Below the pieces are notes generated by a model. It was not told the origin of the DNA and ran no database searches. It saw only the letters and a program-made list of their open reading frames with translations. A stretch of DNA of 6,084 nt from a virus (Duplodnaviria; Heunggongvirae; Uroviricota; Caudoviricetes), in the IMG/VR virus record IMGVR_UViG_2703718769_000003; one strand, 5' to 3'. The translations under genes and the position numbers were made by a program. This document shows, one piece after another, positions 1 through 6,084 of this stretch (positions are counted from its first letter, which is position 1; every line of letters begins with the position of its first letter).

Positions 1-21
1 ACGGATCTCAGTATGTTTCAT
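1..21 (-). CDS. U: Tail tube terminator protein, lambda U-like; 5' end only (first 7 codons), continues beyond the window start
   Basis: Minus-strand ATG at 19-21 overlaps the Z stop (ATGA arrangement). The codons read M-K-H-T-E-I-R, matching the N-terminus of lambda gpU (MKHTEL...) as I recall it. Position directly downstream of Z matches lambda gene order. Confidence 0.6.
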
Positions 22-551
22 CGTTTTATCGCAATCCTCAGTTGTTGTTTCAGCGCGTATGCCAGTTCTCCGGGCAGGCGTTCACGCCGGATACGGTCAA
101 CGTTTTCATCAAACGCCTGTTTCAGTGGGGCCGCCATCGGGATTTTCACCACATCAATGGGGTAACGGTTTTTCCCGGCAACACGCTGCATGACATGCCA
201 GCGACCATTTTTTAATCGCTGAATAAATGCCCGCTGATACCGATGCTGACCAGCTTTAAGTATGCTGTTCGGACGACGGCCCAGCATCCTGATCCCCAGC
301 TTAATCACAGGGAGATCACCGCGGTTAACGATAATTCTGGCATTCGGATTTCTGACCGTCGCCCGTTTCAGTCTGGACCGTTCCTTTACCAGTTTCCGGC
401 TCACCCTGGTCTCCCGGGCAACCTGTGATGAAGACTGATTAATCGCCGTTGTGGCAACGCGGTTAATAGCCATTGCTGAAGCCGCCGGAATGGCGTTTTT
501 ACGAACCCGGCTCAGATTTTCAATCGCCTGATCAAGCCCTTTTATCGCCAT
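18..551 (-). CDS. Z: Tail completion protein, lambda Z-like (177 aa)
   Basis: ORF track 18..551 (-). N-terminus MAIKGLDQAIENLSR...AAMAINRVA...SQVARET...LVKER.RLKRATV.NP.ARI.VNRGDLPVIKLG and C-terminus FIQ.LKNGRWHVMQRVAGKNRYPIDVVKIPMA...RIRRERLP.EL.YAL...LR..IKR closely match recalled lambda gpZ. ATG at 549-551 with AGGGTGA Shine-Dalgarno about 5 nt upstream. About 15 aa shorter than lambda Z (192 aa), apparently through a central deletion. Confidence 0.9.
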   Translation of the reverse strand: MAIKGLDQAIENLSRVRKNAIPAASAMAINRVATTAINQSSSQVARETRVSRKLVKERSRLKRATVRNPNARIIVNRGDLPVIKLGIRMLGRRPNSILKAGQHRYQRAFIQRLKNGRWHVMQRVAGKNRYPIDVVKIPMAAPLKQAFDENVDRIRRERLPGELAYALKQQLRIAIKR

Positions 552-565
552 AATTCACCCTGCGT

Positions 566-919
566 TTATCGTCGCCGGTTAACTGCGGGGGGTTGCCCAC
601 GGTTGAGCCAGAGATAGCAACTGCCCCCGTCATCCGGAGAAACACGATCCACCCAGAATGTCTCACCATTAATGGTCAGCGTGTCACCACGCCGCACAGC
701 ACGAACCGTATCCGTCCGCACAAATAATGACGGGCAGCTTCCTTCAATACGGACCCCGCTACCGGCAAACCCCAGCGACTCCGGATCGTCAAAAACCCCC
801 TGAACTTCGCTGCCACACTGTGCCCCCGAGGTGAACTGCGCACAGAGTCCCATCACTTCAATAATCGTGCTGTCCACCCCGGCAAGGGCAGCATCAAAGG
901 CATTCTGAAAATCACGCAT
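566..919 (-). CDS. FII: Head-tail joining / head completion protein, lambda FII-like (117 aa)
   Basis: ORF track 566..919 (-). Same length as lambda gpFII (117 aa) with extensive recalled identity (GVFDDPE, GVR.EGS.PSLFVRTD.VR..RRGDTLTI, FWVDRVSPDDGGSC.LWL.RG.PPAVNRRR). Start ATG 917-919 overlaps the FI stop (912-914) by 8 nt. Confidence 0.92.
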   Translation of the reverse strand: MRDFQNAFDAALAGVDSTIIEVMGLCAQFTSGAQCGSEVQGVFDDPESLGFAGSGVRIEGSCPSLFVRTDTVRAVRRGDTLTINGETFWVDRVSPDDGGSCYLWLNRGQPPAVNRRR

Positions 920-1295
920 GCTCAGCCGTTCCGTGCTGTATCATGGCTGTCGCCAGTGGTGACGGCACCAGAACACGCATGCCCCGGTACGTCAGTTCAA
1001 CGGGACGGCCTGTCTCCGGGCAATACCCCATCACATGCAGGCATTTCCGCACACGGACCGCTTTAACATCATCCGTAGCATCAGTGTTGTACAACTGCTC
1101 ACCATCGTCTGTGTGATTTTGCTCTGACCAGCTCTCATCACCAGGCATAATGCCCTCCCGGGAAGCAGCAAGCTCCTCTTCCCACTCAGACACACGTTGC
1201 GCAATATCCGCAGCACTCCCCGACATATCCGCCTCGCGCCCCAGCAGGCCAGCCAGTTGACGAAGACGATTCAGATTTTCTTCTTTTGTTGCCAT
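912..1295 (-). CDS. FI: DNA packaging / head assembly protein, lambda FI-like (about 127 aa from the ATG at 1293-1295)
   Basis: ORF track gives 912..1343 from an upstream GTG. I place the start at the ATG at 1293-1295 (MATKEENLNRLRQLAGLLGRE...), which aligns with the recalled lambda gpFI N-terminus (MTKDELIARLRSLGEQL...), has a GGGGG Shine-Dalgarno 5-6 nt upstream, and lies downstream of the terminator-like hairpin. An acidic central region (EWEEELAA...DDGEQ...DATDD) is also FI-like. The C-terminal third is less similar to lambda as I recall it. Confidence 0.75.
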   Translation of the reverse strand: MATKEENLNRLRQLAGLLGREADMSGSAADIAQRVSEWEEELAASREGIMPGDESWSEQNHTDDGEQLYNTDATDDVKAVRVRKCLHVMGYCPETGRPVELTYRGMRVLVPSPLATAMIQHGTAEHA

Positions 1296-1308
1296 ATCAG
1301 CCCCCTGT

Positions 1309-1340
1309 GAAAAAAGACACGGGGGCATTTCGCCCCCGCT
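1309..1340 (-). terminator. Intrinsic-terminator-like hairpin between E and FI: 7-bp GC stem (CGGGGGC / GCCCCCG), 5-nt loop (GAAAT), then a UCUUUUUU tract on the transcribed (minus) strand
   Basis: Read directly from the sequence. Plus strand 1321-1339 is cgggggcatttcgcccccg, a perfect inverted repeat. The minus-strand RNA would be CGGGGGC-GAAAU-GCCCCCG followed 2 nt later by UCUUUUUU (plus strand 1311-1318 aaaaaaga). It lies between the E stop (1347-1349) and the FI start (1293-1295). Confidence 0.6.
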
Positions 1341-1346
1341 CACGGA

Positions 1347-2375
1347 TTATTTCACCTGCACCACCACAAACTCATCCGGATCCGGCAGCACCATCAGCGG
1401 TGCGGACTGCGTCATGGTAAATTCACGGGCCGGATCGCCCACGGTCAGCCAGTGTTTCGGGTAACGGGAAGAAGCCACCACACCTTCGGACAACGCCTGC
1501 GCATCCTGAATGGCACCGTAACAACGGATCCCATCTGCAGCCGTATTTCCCAGCACCAGCGTGCCCTCCGGCAGATAACGTTTTTCGGTACCGTCCTCTG
1601 CCACATAAGACGTTTTCGCCACCACAATGGCCAGATCGCCGTAATACCCTTTGAAAGACACCACCGCCCCCAGGTCTTTCACTGCCGTTTCGAGTTGTGA
1701 ATTTGAGCCGCGACGGGTATCCAGTTTTTCGCGGAAAAGCTTAAAGCCATTCAGCAGACGCCAGACAGTACCGTCCATAATGGCAATATTCACAAGACCG
1801 CTGGCCTGATCGCAGTAAAGGTCAATATCATGCGTCGGATCAAACGTATCACGGTCCTGCTCAGACCATTTTTTACCGTCGGCCTGCTCAATGTTATTTC
1901 CTTCAGAGCGTCCAAAATCCACCTCGACAGTATCAAACTGATCCCCTTCCATGGTGTATTTGCCATACAGCACGGCATTCACCGCCTGCATTTCTTCCAC
2001 CTGGACAATGGCGTGCTCTTCCTGTTTGAGGTTATCAGTGATGATACGCAGACGACGGTAGGCCGGGTCGTTCAGCTGAGCCGGATCTTCACCGGGAAGA
2101 CGCTCAACCGCCTGCTGGTAATTAAATTCGTGTTTCGGCTTGACGTAGCCCGGACGCAACACGCGGGTTTCACCACCGCGATGACGCAGCACTTTTCCTT
2201 CAACGACCGGGGAGACATAGGCCGCCACCGGCGTTTTTCCGGTAATTTTGTCCAGCATCACCTCTTCGGTGTGGAAATTCACCGTACGGCGGAAAAACAG
2301 TTCCAGAAACAGCGCTCGAAATTTCACTTTTTGTTCGGTATAACCGAGTAACTGGCGGGTCGTAAACAATCCCAT
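1347..2375 (-). CDS. E: Major capsid protein, lambda E-like (342 aa)
   Basis: ORF track 1347..2375 (-). Nearly the same length as lambda gpE (341 aa) with long recalled identical stretches (PGYVKPKHE, LDTRRGSNS.LETAVKDLG, YPK.W.T.GDPAREFTM.QSAPLM.L.DPDEF). ATG at 2373-2375 with AAAGGAA Shine-Dalgarno-like sequence upstream. Confidence 0.95.
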   Translation of the reverse strand: MGLFTTRQLLGYTEQKVKFRALFLELFFRRTVNFHTEEVMLDKITGKTPVAAYVSPVVEGKVLRHRGGETRVLRPGYVKPKHEFNYQQAVERLPGEDPAQLNDPAYRRLRIITDNLKQEEHAIVQVEEMQAVNAVLYGKYTMEGDQFDTVEVDFGRSEGNNIEQADGKKWSEQDRDTFDPTHDIDLYCDQASGLVNIAIMDGTVWRLLNGFKLFREKLDTRRGSNSQLETAVKDLGAVVSFKGYYGDLAIVVAKTSYVAEDGTEKRYLPEGTLVLGNTAADGIRCYGAIQDAQALSEGVVASSRYPKHWLTVGDPAREFTMTQSAPLMVLPDPDEFVVVQVK

Positions 2376-2404
2376 AAATCAGTTCCTTTCATTCAGAAAT
2401 CAGT

Positions 2405-2424
2405 CAGGCCACCGCGGTGGCCTG
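2405..2424. other. Perfect 20-nt palindrome CAGGCCACCGCGGTGGCCTG in the D-E intergenic region; potential RNA hairpin in the late transcript or a protein-binding site
   Basis: Read directly from the sequence at 2405-2424; it is self-complementary over all 20 nt and sits in the 57-nt gap between the D stop (2433-2435) and the E start (2373-2375). No U-tract follows on the transcribed strand, so it is not a canonical intrinsic terminator. Confidence 0.5.
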
Positions 2425-2432
2425 ATAACGTG

Positions 2433-2780
2433 TTACGGCAGCGCCGCGTGACTAAGGGCACTGCCGGCAAAGGCGTTGGCCTTTTTGTGTTCATCCACAC
2501 TCTCAGGCCAGTGAATTGCCTCTGTCGCAAAGGTCCCCGACTTGTAATACGTCAGTACCGTCTCTGTACCTTCAAGCGGCAGTACCAGTATGCCAACCGC
2601 ACCACCGGCTTTCTGTCCGTCCCAGACCACCAGTTTCCCGCTGGCCTCATCCAGCATCAGGGGCGTCAGAGCCGGTGTTGCAGAAGAAATCCCGCTGCTG
2701 CCAGTGGCGGTATGAGCCAGATCATTACCGGCAAAAATACGTACTTCCGCACGCTGTTCAGTGATGGTTTTCGTTACCAT
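2433..2780 (-). CDS. D: Head decoration protein, lambda D-like (115 aa)
   Basis: ORF track 2433..2780 (-). Size close to lambda gpD (110 aa) with recalled motifs (AHTATG..G.S...PA.TPLMLD, KLV.WDG...G.AVGIL, YKSGTF, WPE...E.KK..AFAG.A.S). ATG at 2778-2780. Confidence 0.9.
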   Translation of the reverse strand: MVTKTITEQRAEVRIFAGNDLAHTATGSSGISSATPALTPLMLDEASGKLVVWDGQKAGGAVGILVLPLEGTETVLTYYKSGTFATEAIHWPESVDEHKKANAFAGSALSHAALP

Positions 2781-2816
2781 ATTGTAAAAACCTCATATTG
2801 ATGGTCAGCACTGACT

Positions 2817-3419
2817 TCATGGCATGGCCATGAGCATTTTCACGTCCGCATCACCGTCTGCTGACGTCTGTGACACGCCCCCATGTACCGCTGCCGGTGA
2901 ATGGTTCGCCATGATGCGTTCAAACAGGGCGGTTGTGGATGCAGAGATAGGCTCTGCCTTACCTGATCCCGCAGCCAGCACAGCCCGGGCATTCTCCACG
3001 GTCATGCCCGGGCAGGCAGCCAGCTGTTCAGCCTGCGCCTCAGCCCCTTTTGCCTCATCCAGGGCCATGATCTGATCACGGAGTGAGGGGCCGGTATCTG
3101 CCTGTGGTGAAGCAGCCAGGATAGGGCTGGCTTTTTCCACCGTCATCTCCGGCATCGCCGCCAGCGTTGCCGCCAGTTGTTCACGACCTTTAGCCTCTTC
3201 ACACGCCATAATGCGATCGGCTTCACTCTGCGAGGATGCCACCGGTTGCTGTGGTGCTGCCGCGGACAGAATCGCCCGGGCCTGTTCAACGCTCATGCCC
3301 TGTTGTCCTGCCAGCATCGTGGCAAGCTGTTCACGTCCTTTCGCTTCCTGACATGTCAGGATCCCCATCACTCTCTGGTTCTCCTGCGCGGCGGCTTCCG
3401 TTGCAGTTAATTGCGGCAT
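2817..3419 (-). CDS. Nu3: Nu3-like scaffolding protein, translated from an in-frame internal start within C (about 200 aa, sharing the C-terminus of C)
   Basis: In-frame ATG at 3417-3419 (residue M302 of C; MPQLTATEAAAQ...) is preceded on the minus strand by AGAGGAGG with a 4-nt spacer, a near-consensus Shine-Dalgarno embedded in coding sequence. The predicted ~200-aa product matches the size and nested C/Nu3 arrangement of lambda. An alternative in-frame ATG at 3630-3632 (M231, MQQRIDAAHRMF) has only a weak Shine-Dalgarno. Confidence 0.6.
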   Translation of the reverse strand: MPQLTATEAAAQENQRVMGILTCQEAKGREQLATMLAGQQGMSVEQARAILSAAAPQQPVASSQSEADRIMACEEAKGREQLAATLAAMPEMTVEKASPILAASPQADTGPSLRDQIMALDEAKGAEAQAEQLAACPGMTVENARAVLAAGSGKAEPISASTTALFERIMANHSPAAVHGGVSQTSADGDADVKMLMAMP

Positions 3420-4322
3420 AGTGCCTCCTCTGGCATTACTGTTCAGCGCCGTGGCCATCACACTGATGGCATCCGACGCATTGATTAATTCATCCGCCAG
3501 CCCGGCCTCAATACCGGACTGACCTTCAAAAACGGCGGCCTCTGTTCCCGTGACGGCATCCACAGACAGACCGGTATACATCGCCACTTTTTCGGCAAAC
3601 ATCCGGTGTGCCGCATCAATCCGCTGCTGCATGTCCTGGCGAACTTCTGCCGGCAACGCTTCAAACTGATTGCCATCCACCTTATGCGCCCCGGCGTAAA
3701 TCAGCGTGATATCCACACCGGCCTGCGCCAGATGACCGGCATAGCTGACATGGCTCATCATCACGCCAATGGAGCCGATACGGGATGTCTGGGTAACCAG
3801 CCGTCGGGAGCAGGCCGACGCCAGCAGCATGGCTGCAGAACAGGCCGTGTCATTGCACAGTGCCCAGACCGGCTTCTGCTGACGGAGGCGGTAAATCATG
3901 TCAGCGCAGTCAAACGCGCCGGCGGCCTGCCCGCCCGGACTGTCAATGTCCAGCAGTACGCCACGCACCTGGCTATCCGCCATTGCCTGCTGAAGACAGG
4001 CGACAATGCCGTCATAGCCTGTCATTCCGGAAAAGGGCCGCAGCCCCCCCAGCCGGTGCACCAGCGTGCCTGTCACCGGCAGTACAGCAATGCCGTTCAC
4101 CACCCGGTAAACACGGGCCGGTCGTTTTCCTCCGGCCATGTACTCGTCCGTTTCAGCCAGCATTCCGGGAGCATCAAGCTGTACCTGCTGTTGTGGTACC
4201 GAAAGACTTGCTGCCCCCATCTCGCGCCCGAGCGCGCAAAAGAAAACCCGCGCATAGGCGGGCTCCAGAAGCAGCGGTTCATTGAATGCTGCGGCAATAA
4301 TGTGTGAAAGATTACGTCTCAC
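2817..4322 (-). CDS. C: Prohead (head maturation) protease, lambda C-like, with an S49/ClpP-fold protease domain in the N-terminal ~300 aa and a repeat-containing scaffold-like C-terminal region (501 aa ORF; likely GTG start at 4320-4322)
   Basis: ORF track 2817..4322 (-). N-terminus RNL.HI...AFNEPL.LEPAYARVFFCAL and the central block GVLLDIDSPGG.AAGAFDCADMIYRLRQ.KPVWAL.ND.ACSAAMLLASACSRRLVTQTSRIGSIGVMM.H...LIYAG.HKVDGN match recalled lambda gpC. The start overlaps the B stop (4312-4314) by 11 nt, with an AGAGGAGA Shine-Dalgarno about 10 nt upstream of the GTG. Longer than lambda C (439 aa) because of the repeat expansion in the C-terminal region. Confidence 0.88.
   Translation of the reverse strand: MRRNLSHIIAAAFNEPLLLEPAYARVFFCALGREMGAASLSVPQQQVQLDAPGMLAETDEYMAGGKRPARVYRVVNGIAVLPVTGTLVHRLGGLRPFSGMTGYDGIVACLQQAMADSQVRGVLLDIDSPGGQAAGAFDCADMIYRLRQQKPVWALCNDTACSAAMLLASACSRRLVTQTSRIGSIGVMMSHVSYAGHLAQAGVDITLIYAGAHKVDGNQFEALPAEVRQDMQQRIDAAHRMFAEKVAMYTGLSVDAVTGTEAAVFEGQSGIEAGLADELINASDAISVMATALNSNARGGTMPQLTATEAAAQENQRVMGILTCQEAKGREQLATMLAGQQGMSVEQARAILSAAAPQQPVASSQSEADRIMACEEAKGREQLAATLAAMPEMTVEKASPILAASPQADTGPSLRDQIMALDEAKGAEAQAEQLAACPGMTVENARAVLAAGSGKAEPISASTTALFERIMANHSPAAVHGGVSQTSADGDADVKMLMAMP
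2970..3380 (-). repeat. Three diverged in-frame tandem repeats of about 150 nt (50-51 aa) within the scaffold region of C/Nu3, each encoding a motif like IM..xEAKGREQLA..LA..PGMTVE.AR.ILAA
   Basis: Protein-level copies at about residues 318-352, 370-404 and 417-451 of C. At DNA level the core (c/t)tgttca recurs at 3024-3030, 3177-3183 and 3327-3333 (spacing 153 and 150 nt) with similar flanks (gtcatgcccgggcaggcagccagctgttca / cgccgccagttgttcacg / gtggcaagctgttcacg). Confidence 0.7.
3420..3431 (-). promoter_or_regulatory. Internal ribosome-binding site (AGAGGAGG) within the C coding sequence, positioned for Nu3 initiation
   Basis: Plus strand 3420-3431 agtgcctcctct is the reverse complement of AGAGGAGGCACT, immediately 5' of the in-frame ATG at 3417-3419 on the minus strand. 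Confidence 0.6.
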
Positions 4323-5904
4323 GTGGTGTTGTCTCCTCTTCCGGCCTGCGGCTCTCCGCTATCTGCTGCTGATACGCCTGTGCTATCCACACCGGACGTG
4401 AGAGTCCGGCCTTTTCCCGCTCTGCGGATTCCCTGACCTGCTGGCGGAAAATGTCCTGATAATCCTCACCCATCAGCGCCAGCTCTTTCTCATACGTGCT
4501 CAGTCCGGAATCAATACGCATCACCGATTCCTGGACTTCCTTGAGCCCGTCAATGGCCATTCTTCCGGCACCAATCCACTCGGCCCGTGACCAGGCTGAA
4601 CGCGCCTGATAAAAATCAAAACGCGCCCGTGGCGGACGAATAATCCCCCGAAGAAGTGCCTCTTCCAGCCAGCAGGAAAACATCTGCGTGGCCAGCCGGG
4701 ACGCAATAAATTTTCGTCGTCCCATAAAATAGCGCCACGACTCATTGGCGGAGGCGCGGGCACTTGAATAACTGACCTTCGAGTAATCACGGGACAACTG
4801 TTCGTAGGAAACGCCAAGACCGGCGGCGATATACCGCAGCAGCGCCTGTTCAAGCGCCGAAAATCCATTGTCTGAATCCTGCGCGGTCTGCAGTTTCAGA
4901 TCATCCCCGGGGAAAAGGTGCGGAATTTTGACACCACCCAGCGTCACGCTATTCGTGTCATACCAGGTGGAGAACTTCTCCAGAATATTAATAAGCGGAT
5001 TATCCTTCTGCCCCTGCGGCGCACCGGCGATATATTCAAAGGCCTTTTCGGTATCAAGTTCACTTTCAATCGTCGCTGCATACATCGCCCTCACTATGGC
5101 CGACTGAAGCTGTGTTGCCTGCAGGGAATCGAGCATCTTCAGCCGTTCCATGACGCTGTAAAACTGATTAGCCCCACGGGTCTGCCCGTCCTCCACCGGC
5201 TCGAAAATATGCAGCATGGCCGGGCGCCCGGTGGGAAGTTCACGCGGGATCCGTTCCCATCGTCCACTACCAGAGAACGGAAAATCATCCTCACAGATAT
5301 GGTACGCGACGGCACGGCCATATCGATCGACCTCCACACCGGCCCGCAGAAAACGGTTCCCCATACCGTGTCCAGGCGTGTCCACCCGTTTCGGACTCAC
5401 GGCTTTAAAACGCGTACGGAATAACTGCGTGGTTTCCGTATCCCAGACCGGCTGCACAAAGATTTCGCCGTTAAACGCATGAACGCCCACACCTTCACGG
5501 ATAAATTCCGTAAACGTGCGTTTCCCTTCCACGTCGATCTCGCCAGACATCCCTTCTGCGTATTCCGACCAGGCCGCCTCCACCTCATCGACAAAACTTT
5601 TTGCCGCAGTCTCCCGCATCCCCAGCCAGCGCCAGTTCGGACGGTAGCTGATCAGAAACATATGCCCGACAATATGATCCTTATGCAGGGCCACCGCATT
5701 AGCCGCTATCCCGTTATTGCGTACCAGATCATCTGCACGGGCATTCCCCAGACGCAACGCGGGCAGCAGGGCCGCATCGGCACTCTGCGCCGGTGGCAAC
5801 CACTCCGCCATTTGCCCGCCAAATCCTGCACCGCCCCCGTGGTAGCTGAGGCTCTCCCGAAGCGGAACGCCGTTCACATCAATCAGGACAGGCGTTCGTT
5901 TCAT
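4312..5904 (-). CDS. B: Portal protein, lambda B-like (530 aa)
   Basis: ORF track 4312..5904 (-). Size close to lambda gpB (533 aa) with long recalled identities (YHGGG.GFGGQ, DAALLP, GNARADDLVRNNG.AANA, FEPVEDGQTRGAN.FYSVME..KMLD.LQ.TQLQSAIV.AMYAATIESELDT, LLRYIAAGLGVSYEQLSR.Y, GRMAIDGLKEVQE.VM.I..GLSTYEKE). ATG at 5902-5904 follows 2 nt after the upstream ORF's TGA (5909-5911), with a GGGAGTGAGG Shine-Dalgarno-like sequence overlapping the upstream gene's end. Confidence 0.95.
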   Translation of the reverse strand: MKRTPVLIDVNGVPLRESLSYHGGGAGFGGQMAEWLPPAQSADAALLPALRLGNARADDLVRNNGIAANAVALHKDHIVGHMFLISYRPNWRWLGMRETAAKSFVDEVEAAWSEYAEGMSGEIDVEGKRTFTEFIREGVGVHAFNGEIFVQPVWDTETTQLFRTRFKAVSPKRVDTPGHGMGNRFLRAGVEVDRYGRAVAYHICEDDFPFSGSGRWERIPRELPTGRPAMLHIFEPVEDGQTRGANQFYSVMERLKMLDSLQATQLQSAIVRAMYAATIESELDTEKAFEYIAGAPQGQKDNPLINILEKFSTWYDTNSVTLGGVKIPHLFPGDDLKLQTAQDSDNGFSALEQALLRYIAAGLGVSYEQLSRDYSKVSYSSARASANESWRYFMGRRKFIASRLATQMFSCWLEEALLRGIIRPPRARFDFYQARSAWSRAEWIGAGRMAIDGLKEVQESVMRIDSGLSTYEKELALMGEDYQDIFRQQVRESAEREKAGLSRPVWIAQAYQQQIAESRRPEEETTPRET

Positions 5905-5908
5905 AACC

Positions 5909-6084
5909 TCACTCCCAGCGGACGACGGCGACGTCGGGTTGTCCCCAGTACACGCCCCGCTGATTGCGGGTTTTTGGCATGGTGATCACCGGCTTGCCAT
6001 AAACAGATGCACCTTTTACCGGCAGCACCCGGAAAACACCGTGTTTTTTTGACCTCTGATAAACGATTTCGCCATCGATCCCCC
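5909..6084 (-). CDS. 3' end of an upstream ORF in the position of lambda W (head-tail joining) or the C-terminus of the terminase large subunit; product unassigned
   Basis: Minus-strand frame is open for all 58 codons to the window edge (...GEIVYQRSKKHGVFRVLPVKGASVYGKPVITMPKTRNQRGVYWGQPDVAVVRWE*), ending at TGA 5909-5911 just 4 nt before the B start. It is missing from the ORF track, presumably because its start lies beyond the window. It does not resemble lambda gpW as I recall it. Confidence 0.4.
   Translation of the reverse strand, partial: GIDGEIVYQRSKKHGVFRVLPVKGASVYGKPVITMPKTRNQRGVYWGQPDVAVVRWE

What the first reader, a model, noticed from the sequence alone, without database searches (positions are those of the whole stretch)
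1309..1340. Intrinsic-terminator-like hairpin between the major capsid gene E and FI
On the transcribed strand a perfect 7-bp GC stem (CGGGGGC-GAAAU-GCCCCCG) is followed 2 nt later by UCUUUUUU, the canonical Rho-independent terminator architecture. It lies in the ~50-nt gap right after the E stop and before the FI ribosome-binding site. Within a long late operon this could be a partial terminator or 3'-end stabiliser that lets the major capsid protein message exceed that of FI/FII/Z, or one normally read through by antiterminated polymerase. I do not recall a described terminator at this position in lambda.
Basis: seen in the sequence. Interest (0 to 1): 0.55.

Follow-up and report, generated by a model that had tools for sequence, protein, structure and literature searches.

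The report
Terminator-like hairpin after the capsid gene
A real, conserved terminator-shaped RNA hairpin sits just after the major capsid gene of a phage-21-like E. coli prophage; it is an unannotated example of a known, poorly understood kind of element, so it is fairly ordinary.

Summary
On the minus (transcribed) strand, CGGGGGC-GAAAU-GCCCCCG lies 8 nt after the capsid-gene stop. It extends to a 10-bp bulged stem (1341-1316, dG -16.5 kcal/mol) that directly abuts U6 (1315-1310), 4 nt before the FI ribosome-binding site.

The window is not lambda itself. It is a phage-21-type head module (93-95% identical), present in 1561 of 5426 complete E. coli genomes.

The element is identical in phage 21. 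In 160 close relatives every stem change keeps pairing: G-U wobbles plus one G-C to A-U compensatory change.

Across 294 loci with this capsid family (85 distinct downstream regions, 29 sequence classes), 67 of 85 carry a hairpin plus U-tract here. None of 425 control windows does. Lambda has an unrelated hairpin at the same spot, and a second hairpin precedes the capsid gene.

The curated phage 21 record annotates other terminators inside the late operon but not this one.

Function is inferred. Q-loaded polymerase should read through. The hairpin then most likely caps and stabilises the capsid message. Partial attenuation, or stopping polymerase that lacks Q, remain live rivals.

It is a new member of a known kind, of modest interest.

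The parts
1347..2375 (-). Major capsid protein gene (lambda E / phage 21 gene 7 homologue, PF03864), 342 aa, stop UAA at 1349-1347
   Evidence: ORF list. 93-95% nucleotide identity to phage 21 and PhiR12 records annotated as major capsid protein. Pfam PF03864 on homologues.
1316..1341 (-). RNA hairpin GAGCGGGGGC-GAAAU-GCCCCCGU(G)UC. 5' arm 1341-1332, loop 1331-1327, 3' arm 1326-1316 with bulged G1318. The 7-bp GC core is 1338-1332 paired with 1326-1320.
   Evidence: dG -16.5 kcal/mol and discriminant d = 21. 100% of 138 alignment cells paired; one compensatory G-C to A-U change.
1310..1315 (-). U6 tract directly 3' of the extended stem. Expected RNA 3' ends at about 1307-1312 if a polymerase terminates here.
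   Evidence: Nearly invariant in 160 close relatives.
1301..1305 (-). Shine-Dalgarno (GGGGG; GGAGG or GAGGG in relatives) of the FI homologue, 4 nt after the U tract
   Evidence: A ribosome-binding site is annotated at the equivalent position in phage 21.
912..1295 (-). FI-type DNA-packaging protein gene (phage 21 ORF1 / gpFI homologue), AUG at 1295-1293
   Evidence: The PGAP name 'gpFI: DNA-packaging protein FI' lies under 100% identical E. coli matches. Phage 21 annotation.
2404..2425 (-). Second hairpin UCAGGCCAC-CGCG-GUGGCCUGA in the 57-nt gap between the decoration gene (D/shp, 2433-2780) and the capsid gene. Its U tract is weak here (CUGAUUUCUG). It brackets the capsid gene together with the E-FI hairpin.
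   Evidence: Counterparts with strong U7 tracts occur in lambda-type phages.

Best explanation
**What it is.** An intrinsic-terminator-type RNA element: a GC-rich hairpin directly followed by a U tract. It is encoded at the 3' end of the major capsid cistron, inside the long Q-antiterminated late operon of a phage-21-like prophage.

**How it most likely works.**
- During lytic growth, Q-loaded RNA polymerase reads through it. This follows from two facts: the essential genes FI, FII, Z and the tail genes lie downstream with no promoter of their own, and Q forms a nozzle on the RNA exit channel that prevents terminator hairpins from forming.
- Once the RNA has left the polymerase, the hairpin folds in the message.
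- Inferred, not shown: endonuclease cleavage in or beyond the single-stranded U-rich tract then leaves an upstream capsid message ending in hairpin plus short U tail, the same end as a terminated transcript.
- That end blocks 3'-to-5' exonucleases. The capsid message would therefore outlive the FI-to-tail portion.
- The sister hairpin in the D-E gap would do the same for the decoration-protein cistron.
- As a physical by-product, any polymerase that lacks Q should terminate here.
For: **Shown**
- Architecture and position.
- Identical in phage 21.
- Pairing is kept in all 14 distinct variants of about 160 close relatives. All seven single-side stem changes give G-U wobbles. There is one compensatory G-C to A-U change, with a G-U intermediate also observed.
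- Position is conserved while sequence is not. Of 85 distinct downstream regions (29 sequence classes, 41-100% capsid identity), 67 score as hairpin plus U tail within about 3-30 nt of the stop. None of 425 control windows does.
- Lambda has AUGGCCC-UUCG-GGGCCAU-UGUUUCUCU at the same place.
- The only two gaps longer than 40 nt in the window flank the capsid gene, and each holds a hairpin.
- On the whole phage 21 + strand my scan gives 9 hits. Five are curated terminators, and this element ranks 4th.

**From the literature**
- Q21 and Q-lambda form an exit-channel nozzle that precludes terminator hairpins (10.1101/651190 and PMC9388147, found).
- Terminators inside late operons are recognised in P22-like phages, and their roles are stated to be unknown (PMC8022706).

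**Inferred**
- Hairpins act as exonuclease barriers, and U-rich single strands are endonuclease targets. This is established E. coli mRNA-decay knowledge, recalled and not tested here.
Against: - No RNA 3'-end, coverage or half-life data for any phage of this group could be accessed, so the post-transcriptional role is pure inference.
- An exonuclease barrier does not need a U tract. Yet U tracts abut the stem in most classes (21 of 29 classes have at least 4 U in the first 5 nt). That is the signature expected if real termination is selected.
- From memory, classic work on lambda (Sampson et al. 1988) attributes late-protein ratios mainly to translation initiation, which leaves little for mRNA stability to explain.
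- Some clades keep the hairpin without a U tract, and three distant loci have no gap at all, so the element is not indispensable.
Confidence: 0.4

Rival explanations
1. Partial attenuator in lytic growth. Q antitermination is not complete, so a fraction of late-operon polymerases stop here (and at the D-E, I-J and J-distal hairpins). This gives a stepwise fall in mRNA after the most-needed head proteins, as with T7 T-phi after gene 10.
For: - Canonical hairpin directly followed by U6; d = 21, similar to curated phage 21 terminators.
- U tracts abut the stem in most sequence classes.
- Weak terminators tune phage transcription units (PMC9163698).
- The phage L authors list partial termination as one possible role (PMC8022706).
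Against: - The Q nozzle sterically blocks terminator hairpin formation, so residual termination may be negligible.
- The element matches only half of the bubble-edge motif reported as necessary for strong termination: -10 C and -2 A are present, -11 G and -1 U are absent (preprint 10.64898/2026.05.29.728758).
- The stop codon lies only 5 nt from the stem, so a terminating ribosome should mask the 5' arm.
Confidence: 0.25
2. Insulator against polymerase that lacks Q. The element is a full terminator for any transcription not started at the late promoter and loaded with Q, such as spurious internal promoters or read-in during lysogeny or early infection. It would keep downstream head-completion and tail genes silent until Q acts.
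For: - Terminator architecture.
- This junction is carried as a prophage in 1561 of 5426 complete E. coli genomes, so most of its evolutionary time is spent in lysogeny.
- The phage L authors list stopping spurious transcription that lacks antitermination as a possible role (PMC8022706).
Against: - It does not explain why such elements sit specifically on both sides of the capsid gene rather than at the operon's entry.
- No sense-strand promoter-like site was found upstream within the window.
- Untranslated spurious transcripts would in any case be subject to Rho.
Confidence: 0.2
3. Translation-initiation module for FI. The hairpin locks up the 3' end of the capsid coding RNA so that it cannot pair with the FI ribosome-binding site. 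The U tract just upstream of the Shine-Dalgarno acts as an unstructured enhancer that binds ribosomal protein S1.
For: - The U tract ends 4 nt before the FI Shine-Dalgarno.
- In most classes the next start codon lies 6-31 nt after the hairpin.
- In lambda the D-E U-rich tract runs into the E start region.
Against: - The U tract always abuts the stem rather than keeping a fixed distance to the Shine-Dalgarno.
- The predicted outer helix that could occlude the Shine-Dalgarno is not conserved: the U-to-G variant at 1342 is uncompensated in many loci.
- FI is not a high-demand protein.
Confidence: 0.08
4. No selected function. The element is a chance palindrome, or a relic carried along at a mosaic joint.
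For: The folding z-score of the 51-nt gap alone is modest (-2.3). The window comes from a prophage that appears defective.
Against: - 67 of 85 observed regions against 0 of 425 controls.
- Pairing-preserving substitutions only.
- Independent, non-homologous hairpins at the same position in 26 of 29 sequence classes.
- The mosaic breakpoint relative to phage 21 lies inside FI (window 932-1174), not at the hairpin.
Confidence: 0.03

Closest known systems
Intrinsic terminators annotated inside the phage 21 / lambda late operon (I-J gap, J-distal, and tR' at the operon start)
   Same: Same operon, same strand and same architecture: a GC hairpin plus U tract in an intercistronic gap. All must be read through by Q-loaded polymerase. 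Scores are comparable: E-FI 21.0, against I-J 19.3, J-distal 48.6 and tR' 29.3.
   Different: Those are annotated in the curated record OL657228; this one is not. This one sits at the 3' end of the most highly expressed head gene and is paired with a second hairpin upstream of that gene.
Predicted terminator at the end of the procapsid gene module inside the late operon of P22-like phage L (PMC8022706)
   Same: A terminator-like element after the head-shell genes, inside a single-promoter, antiterminated late operon. The authors say such terminators are not unique to phage L and that their roles are not known.
   Different: A different capsid gene family and a different phage group. That case is a single-genome prediction, without the cross-family positional survey made here.
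T7 T-phi, the terminator immediately after major capsid gene 10
   Same: A terminator directly after the major capsid gene, with essential genes downstream that depend on read-through (PMC6938266).
   Different: It acts on T7 RNA polymerase, with no Q-type antitermination. Its partial efficiency is experimentally established (recalled), whereas nothing has been measured for this element.
Intercistronic mRNA-stabilising hairpins (for example REP elements in malE-malF; recalled from memory)
   Same: A stable stem-loop after the highly expressed upstream cistron of an operon, proposed to block 3' exonucleases and give differential expression.
   Different: REP elements are a repeated sequence family and lack an abutting U tract. 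This hairpin is single-copy in the window, has a terminator-type U tract, and matches no Rfam family.

Membership tests
Intrinsic (Rho-independent) terminator | GC-rich stem-loop (about 5-14 bp, loop 3-8 nt) on the transcribed strand | tested here: met
   10-bp stem with one bulge (7-bp all-G/C core), 5-nt loop, dG -16.5 kcal/mol.
Intrinsic (Rho-independent) terminator | U-rich tract immediately 3' of the stem | tested here: met
   U6 (1315-1310) abuts the extended stem. Tail score 4.2 and discriminant d = 21. The formula was recalled from d'Aubenton-Carafa 1990 and benchmarked on phage 21, where 5 of 9 hits are curated terminators.
Intrinsic (Rho-independent) terminator | Bubble-edge dinucleotides: GC at -11/-10 and RU at -2/-1 (HUB model, 2026 preprint) | tested here: inconclusive
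   Best phasing gives UC-UUUUUUC-AC. The -10 C and -2 A match; the -11 G and -1 U do not (sequence; rule). This suggests intermediate rather than strong efficiency.
Intrinsic (Rho-independent) terminator | Transcripts actually end at the U tract, in vitro or in vivo | not testable with these tools
   No 3'-end data were accessible. Sakai Term-seq (GSE143631) is mentioned in PMC7547250. The lambda mRNA-seq paper (Liu et al. 2013) is not held.
mRNA 3'-end stabiliser (exonuclease barrier) | Stable hairpin at the 3' side of the protected cistron, conserved as structure rather than as sequence | tested here: met
   26 of 29 sequence classes have a GC hairpin 3-30 nt after the capsid stop. Within the phage 21 type, all cells pair and one pair shows a compensatory change.
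mRNA 3'-end stabiliser (exonuclease barrier) | The upstream segment accumulates or decays more slowly, dependent on the hairpin | not testable with these tools
   Needs rifampicin-chase RNA measurements and hairpin mutants.
Any curated RNA family (Rfam 15) | Covariance-model match | tested here: not met
   Nothing at the hairpin even at E <= 10. Only four chance-level hits elsewhere in 1200-2500.
RNase III processing site | About 20 bp or more of near-continuous double-stranded RNA (established knowledge) | tested here: not met
   The stem is only 10 bp.

The most novel reading that the evidence does not exclude
In phages with the lambda-E-type capsid gene, the decoration and capsid cistrons are bracketed by terminator-shaped hairpins. 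Together these would form a conserved post-transcriptional cassette: Q-loaded polymerase reads through, the transcript is then cut at the U tracts, and a hyper-stable D/E message results. That would set capsid-protein stoichiometry independently of transcription, a general design rule for antiterminated late operons that has not been described.
Probability: 0.2. Interest if true: 0.55.

Novelty: new member of a known kind. Interest (0 to 1): 0.33.

Why it matters
- Terminator-like hairpins inside antiterminated late operons have been noted before, but their purpose is explicitly stated to be unknown (PMC8022706).
- This element is a clean, very common example. It occurs in 29% of complete E. 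coli genomes and is identical in the well-studied phage 21.
- The survey shows that the position after, and usually also before, the capsid gene is kept across many unrelated hairpin sequences.
- That makes a small long-standing question directly testable in a model system: do these elements attenuate, insulate or stabilise?
- It also flags a feature missing from the curated annotations of phage 21 and lambda.
- It does not change any current concept.

Tried and rejected
- **Rfam:** a permissive search of 1200-2500 found nothing at the hairpin.
- **Literature:** eight full-text searches found no description of a terminator at the E-FI or D-E junction of lambda or phage 21. The key papers are not held: Liu et al. 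2013, Casjens and Hendrix 2015, Sampson et al. 1988. A prior description in older literature (Sanger 1982, Lambda II, Smith and Feiss 1993) therefore cannot be excluded.
- **Uninformative papers:** Osterhout 2007 (microarray study of lambda induction) and the lambda CRISPRi paper say nothing about this junction.
- **Shine-Dalgarno-occluding outer helix:** the helix suggested by the 51-nt fold was rejected, because the 1342 U-to-G variant is common and uncompensated.
- **Stop-codon read-through:** database 'E+FI fusion' proteins (P0005, P0103) were checked. They are deletions that join the end of E to the interior of FI.
- **Best-hairpin energy alone:** this proved a poor discriminator, since 64% of control windows reach -9 kcal/mol. 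The hairpin-plus-U-tail score was used instead.
- **Mosaic-joint relic:** rejected, because the breakpoint relative to phage 21 lies inside FI.

Full report
**What the window is.** All genes lie on the minus strand: portal B 4312-5904, protease/scaffold C-Nu3 2817-4322, decoration D/shp 2433-2780, major capsid E 1347-2375, FI homologue 912-1295, FII 566-919, Z 18-551. The window is 95% identical to Escherichia phages PhiR12_x and 93% to phage 21 (Jouyvirus). It matches lambda itself only weakly and only in places. The E-FI junction occurs in 1561 of 5426 complete E. coli genomes.

**The observation.** The minus strand reads UAA-UCCGU-GAG-CGGGGGC-GAAAU-GCCCCCG-UG-UCUUUUUU-CACA-GGGGG-CUGAU-AUG.

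G1339-U1319 pairs, then after a bulged G1318, A1340-U1317 and G1341-C1316 pair. The result is a 10-bp stem (1341-1316, dG -16.5 kcal/mol) that directly abuts U6 at 1315-1310.

Evidence that this is more than chance:
- It is the top hit of the simple terminator scan (12 found; 5.5 +/- 2.3 in shuffles).
- The 51-nt gap folds with z = -2.3, which is modest on its own.
- I used a hairpin-energy plus U-tail discriminant, with the formula recalled from d'Aubenton-Carafa 1990. To benchmark it I scanned the whole + strand of phage 21. That gave 9 hits, and 5 are the terminators curated in OL657228, including tR' and the nin-region terminator.
- The E-FI element scores 21.0 and ranks 4th in that scan. 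The four remaining hits are this element and three lower-scoring sites (d 1.8-10.4) inside coding sequence.
- On the sense strand of the window itself only two sites score above 0.

**Conservation among close relatives.** The element is identical in phage 21. About 160 loci of the 21 type give 14 distinct variants of the stop-to-start gap (21 when more downstream sequence is included).
- Every stem cell pairs (138 of 138).
- All seven single-side stem changes give G-U wobbles.
- One pair changes G-C to A-U in two variants, and the G-U intermediate is also seen.
- Loop bases and the Shine-Dalgarno vary more freely.
- The U tract is nearly invariant.

This is modest but consistent evidence that the structure is under constraint.

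**Conservation of position without sequence.** I collected 294 loci encoding this capsid family (PF03864) from viral contigs and species-representative genomes.
- They give 85 distinct downstream regions in 29 sequence classes, spanning 41-100% capsid identity.
- 67 of 85 regions carry a hairpin plus U tail scoring above 0 within about 3-30 nt of the stop. None of 425 control windows from the same loci does.
- 26 of 29 classes have a GC-rich hairpin there.
- 17 of 29 classes have a positive median score.
- 21 of 29 classes have at least 4 U in the first five bases after the stem.
- The stems are unrelated to one another. Examples: CGGGGGC, GGCCC-GUAA-GGGCC, GGCGGGA-UAU-UCCCGCC, CGGCGGG-GAAA-CCCGCCG, UGGCGAGC..., GCCGC-UGUCU-GCGGC, UGGGGC-CUAGU-GCCCCA.
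- Lambda and its kin carry (A)UGGCCC-UUCG-GGGCCA(U) followed by UUGUUUCUCU.
- Exceptions are three distant loci where the next gene starts right at the stop, and a few clades that keep the hairpin but have no U tract.

**A second hairpin.** The gap before the capsid gene (D-E) also holds a hairpin.
- In the window it is UCAGGCCAC-CGCG-GUGGCCUGA (2425-2404) with a weak U tract.
- In lambda-type phages it is GCCGC-loop-GCGGC-U7-AC. This is invariant in form but has varied loops and stem extensions.
- That form almost perfectly matches the GC(U)7RU motif recently proposed as defining strong terminators.

The capsid gene is thus bracketed by hairpins. These two gaps are the only intercistronic spaces longer than 40 nt in the window.

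**What is already annotated or described.**
- The curated phage 21 record annotates intrinsic terminators inside the late operon at the I-J gap and after J, plus tR'. It annotates nothing at E-FI or D-E. The older phage 21 record and the lambda record annotate none there either.
- Rfam has no matching family.
- The phage L genome paper states that a predicted terminator lies at the end of the procapsid module inside the late operon. It adds that such terminators are not unique and that their roles are unknown. It suggests partial termination, or stopping transcription that lacks antitermination (PMC8022706).
- T7 has its only T7-polymerase terminator right after its major capsid gene (PMC6938266).
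- I found no paper describing this particular element, but several key lambda papers are not in the library.

**Mechanism.** Shown: the architecture, the position and the conservation. Everything below is inferred.

Unmodified E. coli polymerase should terminate here with some efficiency. The match to the bubble-edge motif is only half (-10 C and -2 A), which suggests intermediate strength.

Q-loaded polymerase must read through. The essential genes downstream have no promoter of their own. Both Q21 and Q-lambda build a nozzle on the RNA exit channel that prevents terminator hairpins from forming (10.1101/651190, PMC9388147).

My preferred reading (0.4) is that the selected role is in the RNA. 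After read-through the hairpin folds. Cleavage in or beyond the U-rich single strand leaves a capsid message capped by the hairpin and protected from 3' exonucleases. It therefore outlasts the FI-to-tail message.

Rivals:
- Residual termination that steps down transcription after the capsid gene (0.25).
- Insulation against polymerases that lack Q (0.2).
- A role in FI translation initiation (0.08).
- No function (0.03).

The close abutment of the U tracts to the stems argues that real termination matters to some degree, and this is the main point against my preferred reading. A terminating ribosome at the UAA, 5 nt from the stem, would also mask the 5' arm; I cannot assess its effect.

**Verdict.** The feature is real, conserved and unannotated, but it belongs to a recognised class of element. 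It is a new member of a known kind. Its interest is modest: it offers a convenient, widespread test case for an acknowledged open question about terminators inside antiterminated late operons.

Noticed in passing
window 2404-2425 (minus strand); lambda J02459 6101-6114: A second hairpin lies in the D-E gap, so the capsid gene is bracketed by hairpins. In lambda-type phages it is GCCGC-loop-GCGGC-U7-AC, a near-perfect strong-terminator motif. Overall, 43 of 83 distinct upstream regions score as hairpin plus U tail.
   Followed up: yes
window about 5949-5951 (junction): Relative to phage 21 the window lacks 533 bp (L001 6485-7017). That removes the 3' part of the terminase large-subunit gene A and most of head-completion gene W. 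The prophage that supplied the window is therefore probably defective.
   Followed up: partly
window 4247-4262 (minus strand): A hairpin CCCGCCUAUGCGCGGG followed by UUUUCUUUUG lies inside gene C, about 50 nt after the portal (B) stop codon. It is conserved at the same place in lambda (4487-4502) and phage 21 (4466-4481), with d about 10-13. This could simply reflect protein-coding conservation.
   Followed up: no
window 1293-1349 (minus strand): The capsid stop codon and the FI start codon are in the same reading frame, 54 nt apart, with no other in-frame stop. Read-through of the UAA would therefore fuse E to FI. Database proteins that look like E+FI fusions (P0005, P0103) are instead deletions joining the end of E to the interior of FI.
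   Followed up: partly
window 1-1174: There is a mosaic boundary relative to phage 21. Positions 1174-5951 are 95% identical, 1-932 (Z, FII) only 78%, and 933-1173 (the rest of FI) does not align. The breakpoint lies inside FI, not at the hairpin.
   Followed up: no
window about 2958-3352 (by offset from M81255 annotation): The old phage 21 record annotates three 'Tri box' repeats of unknown function inside the scaffold (Nu3/gene 6) coding region. They were not examined here.
   Followed up: no
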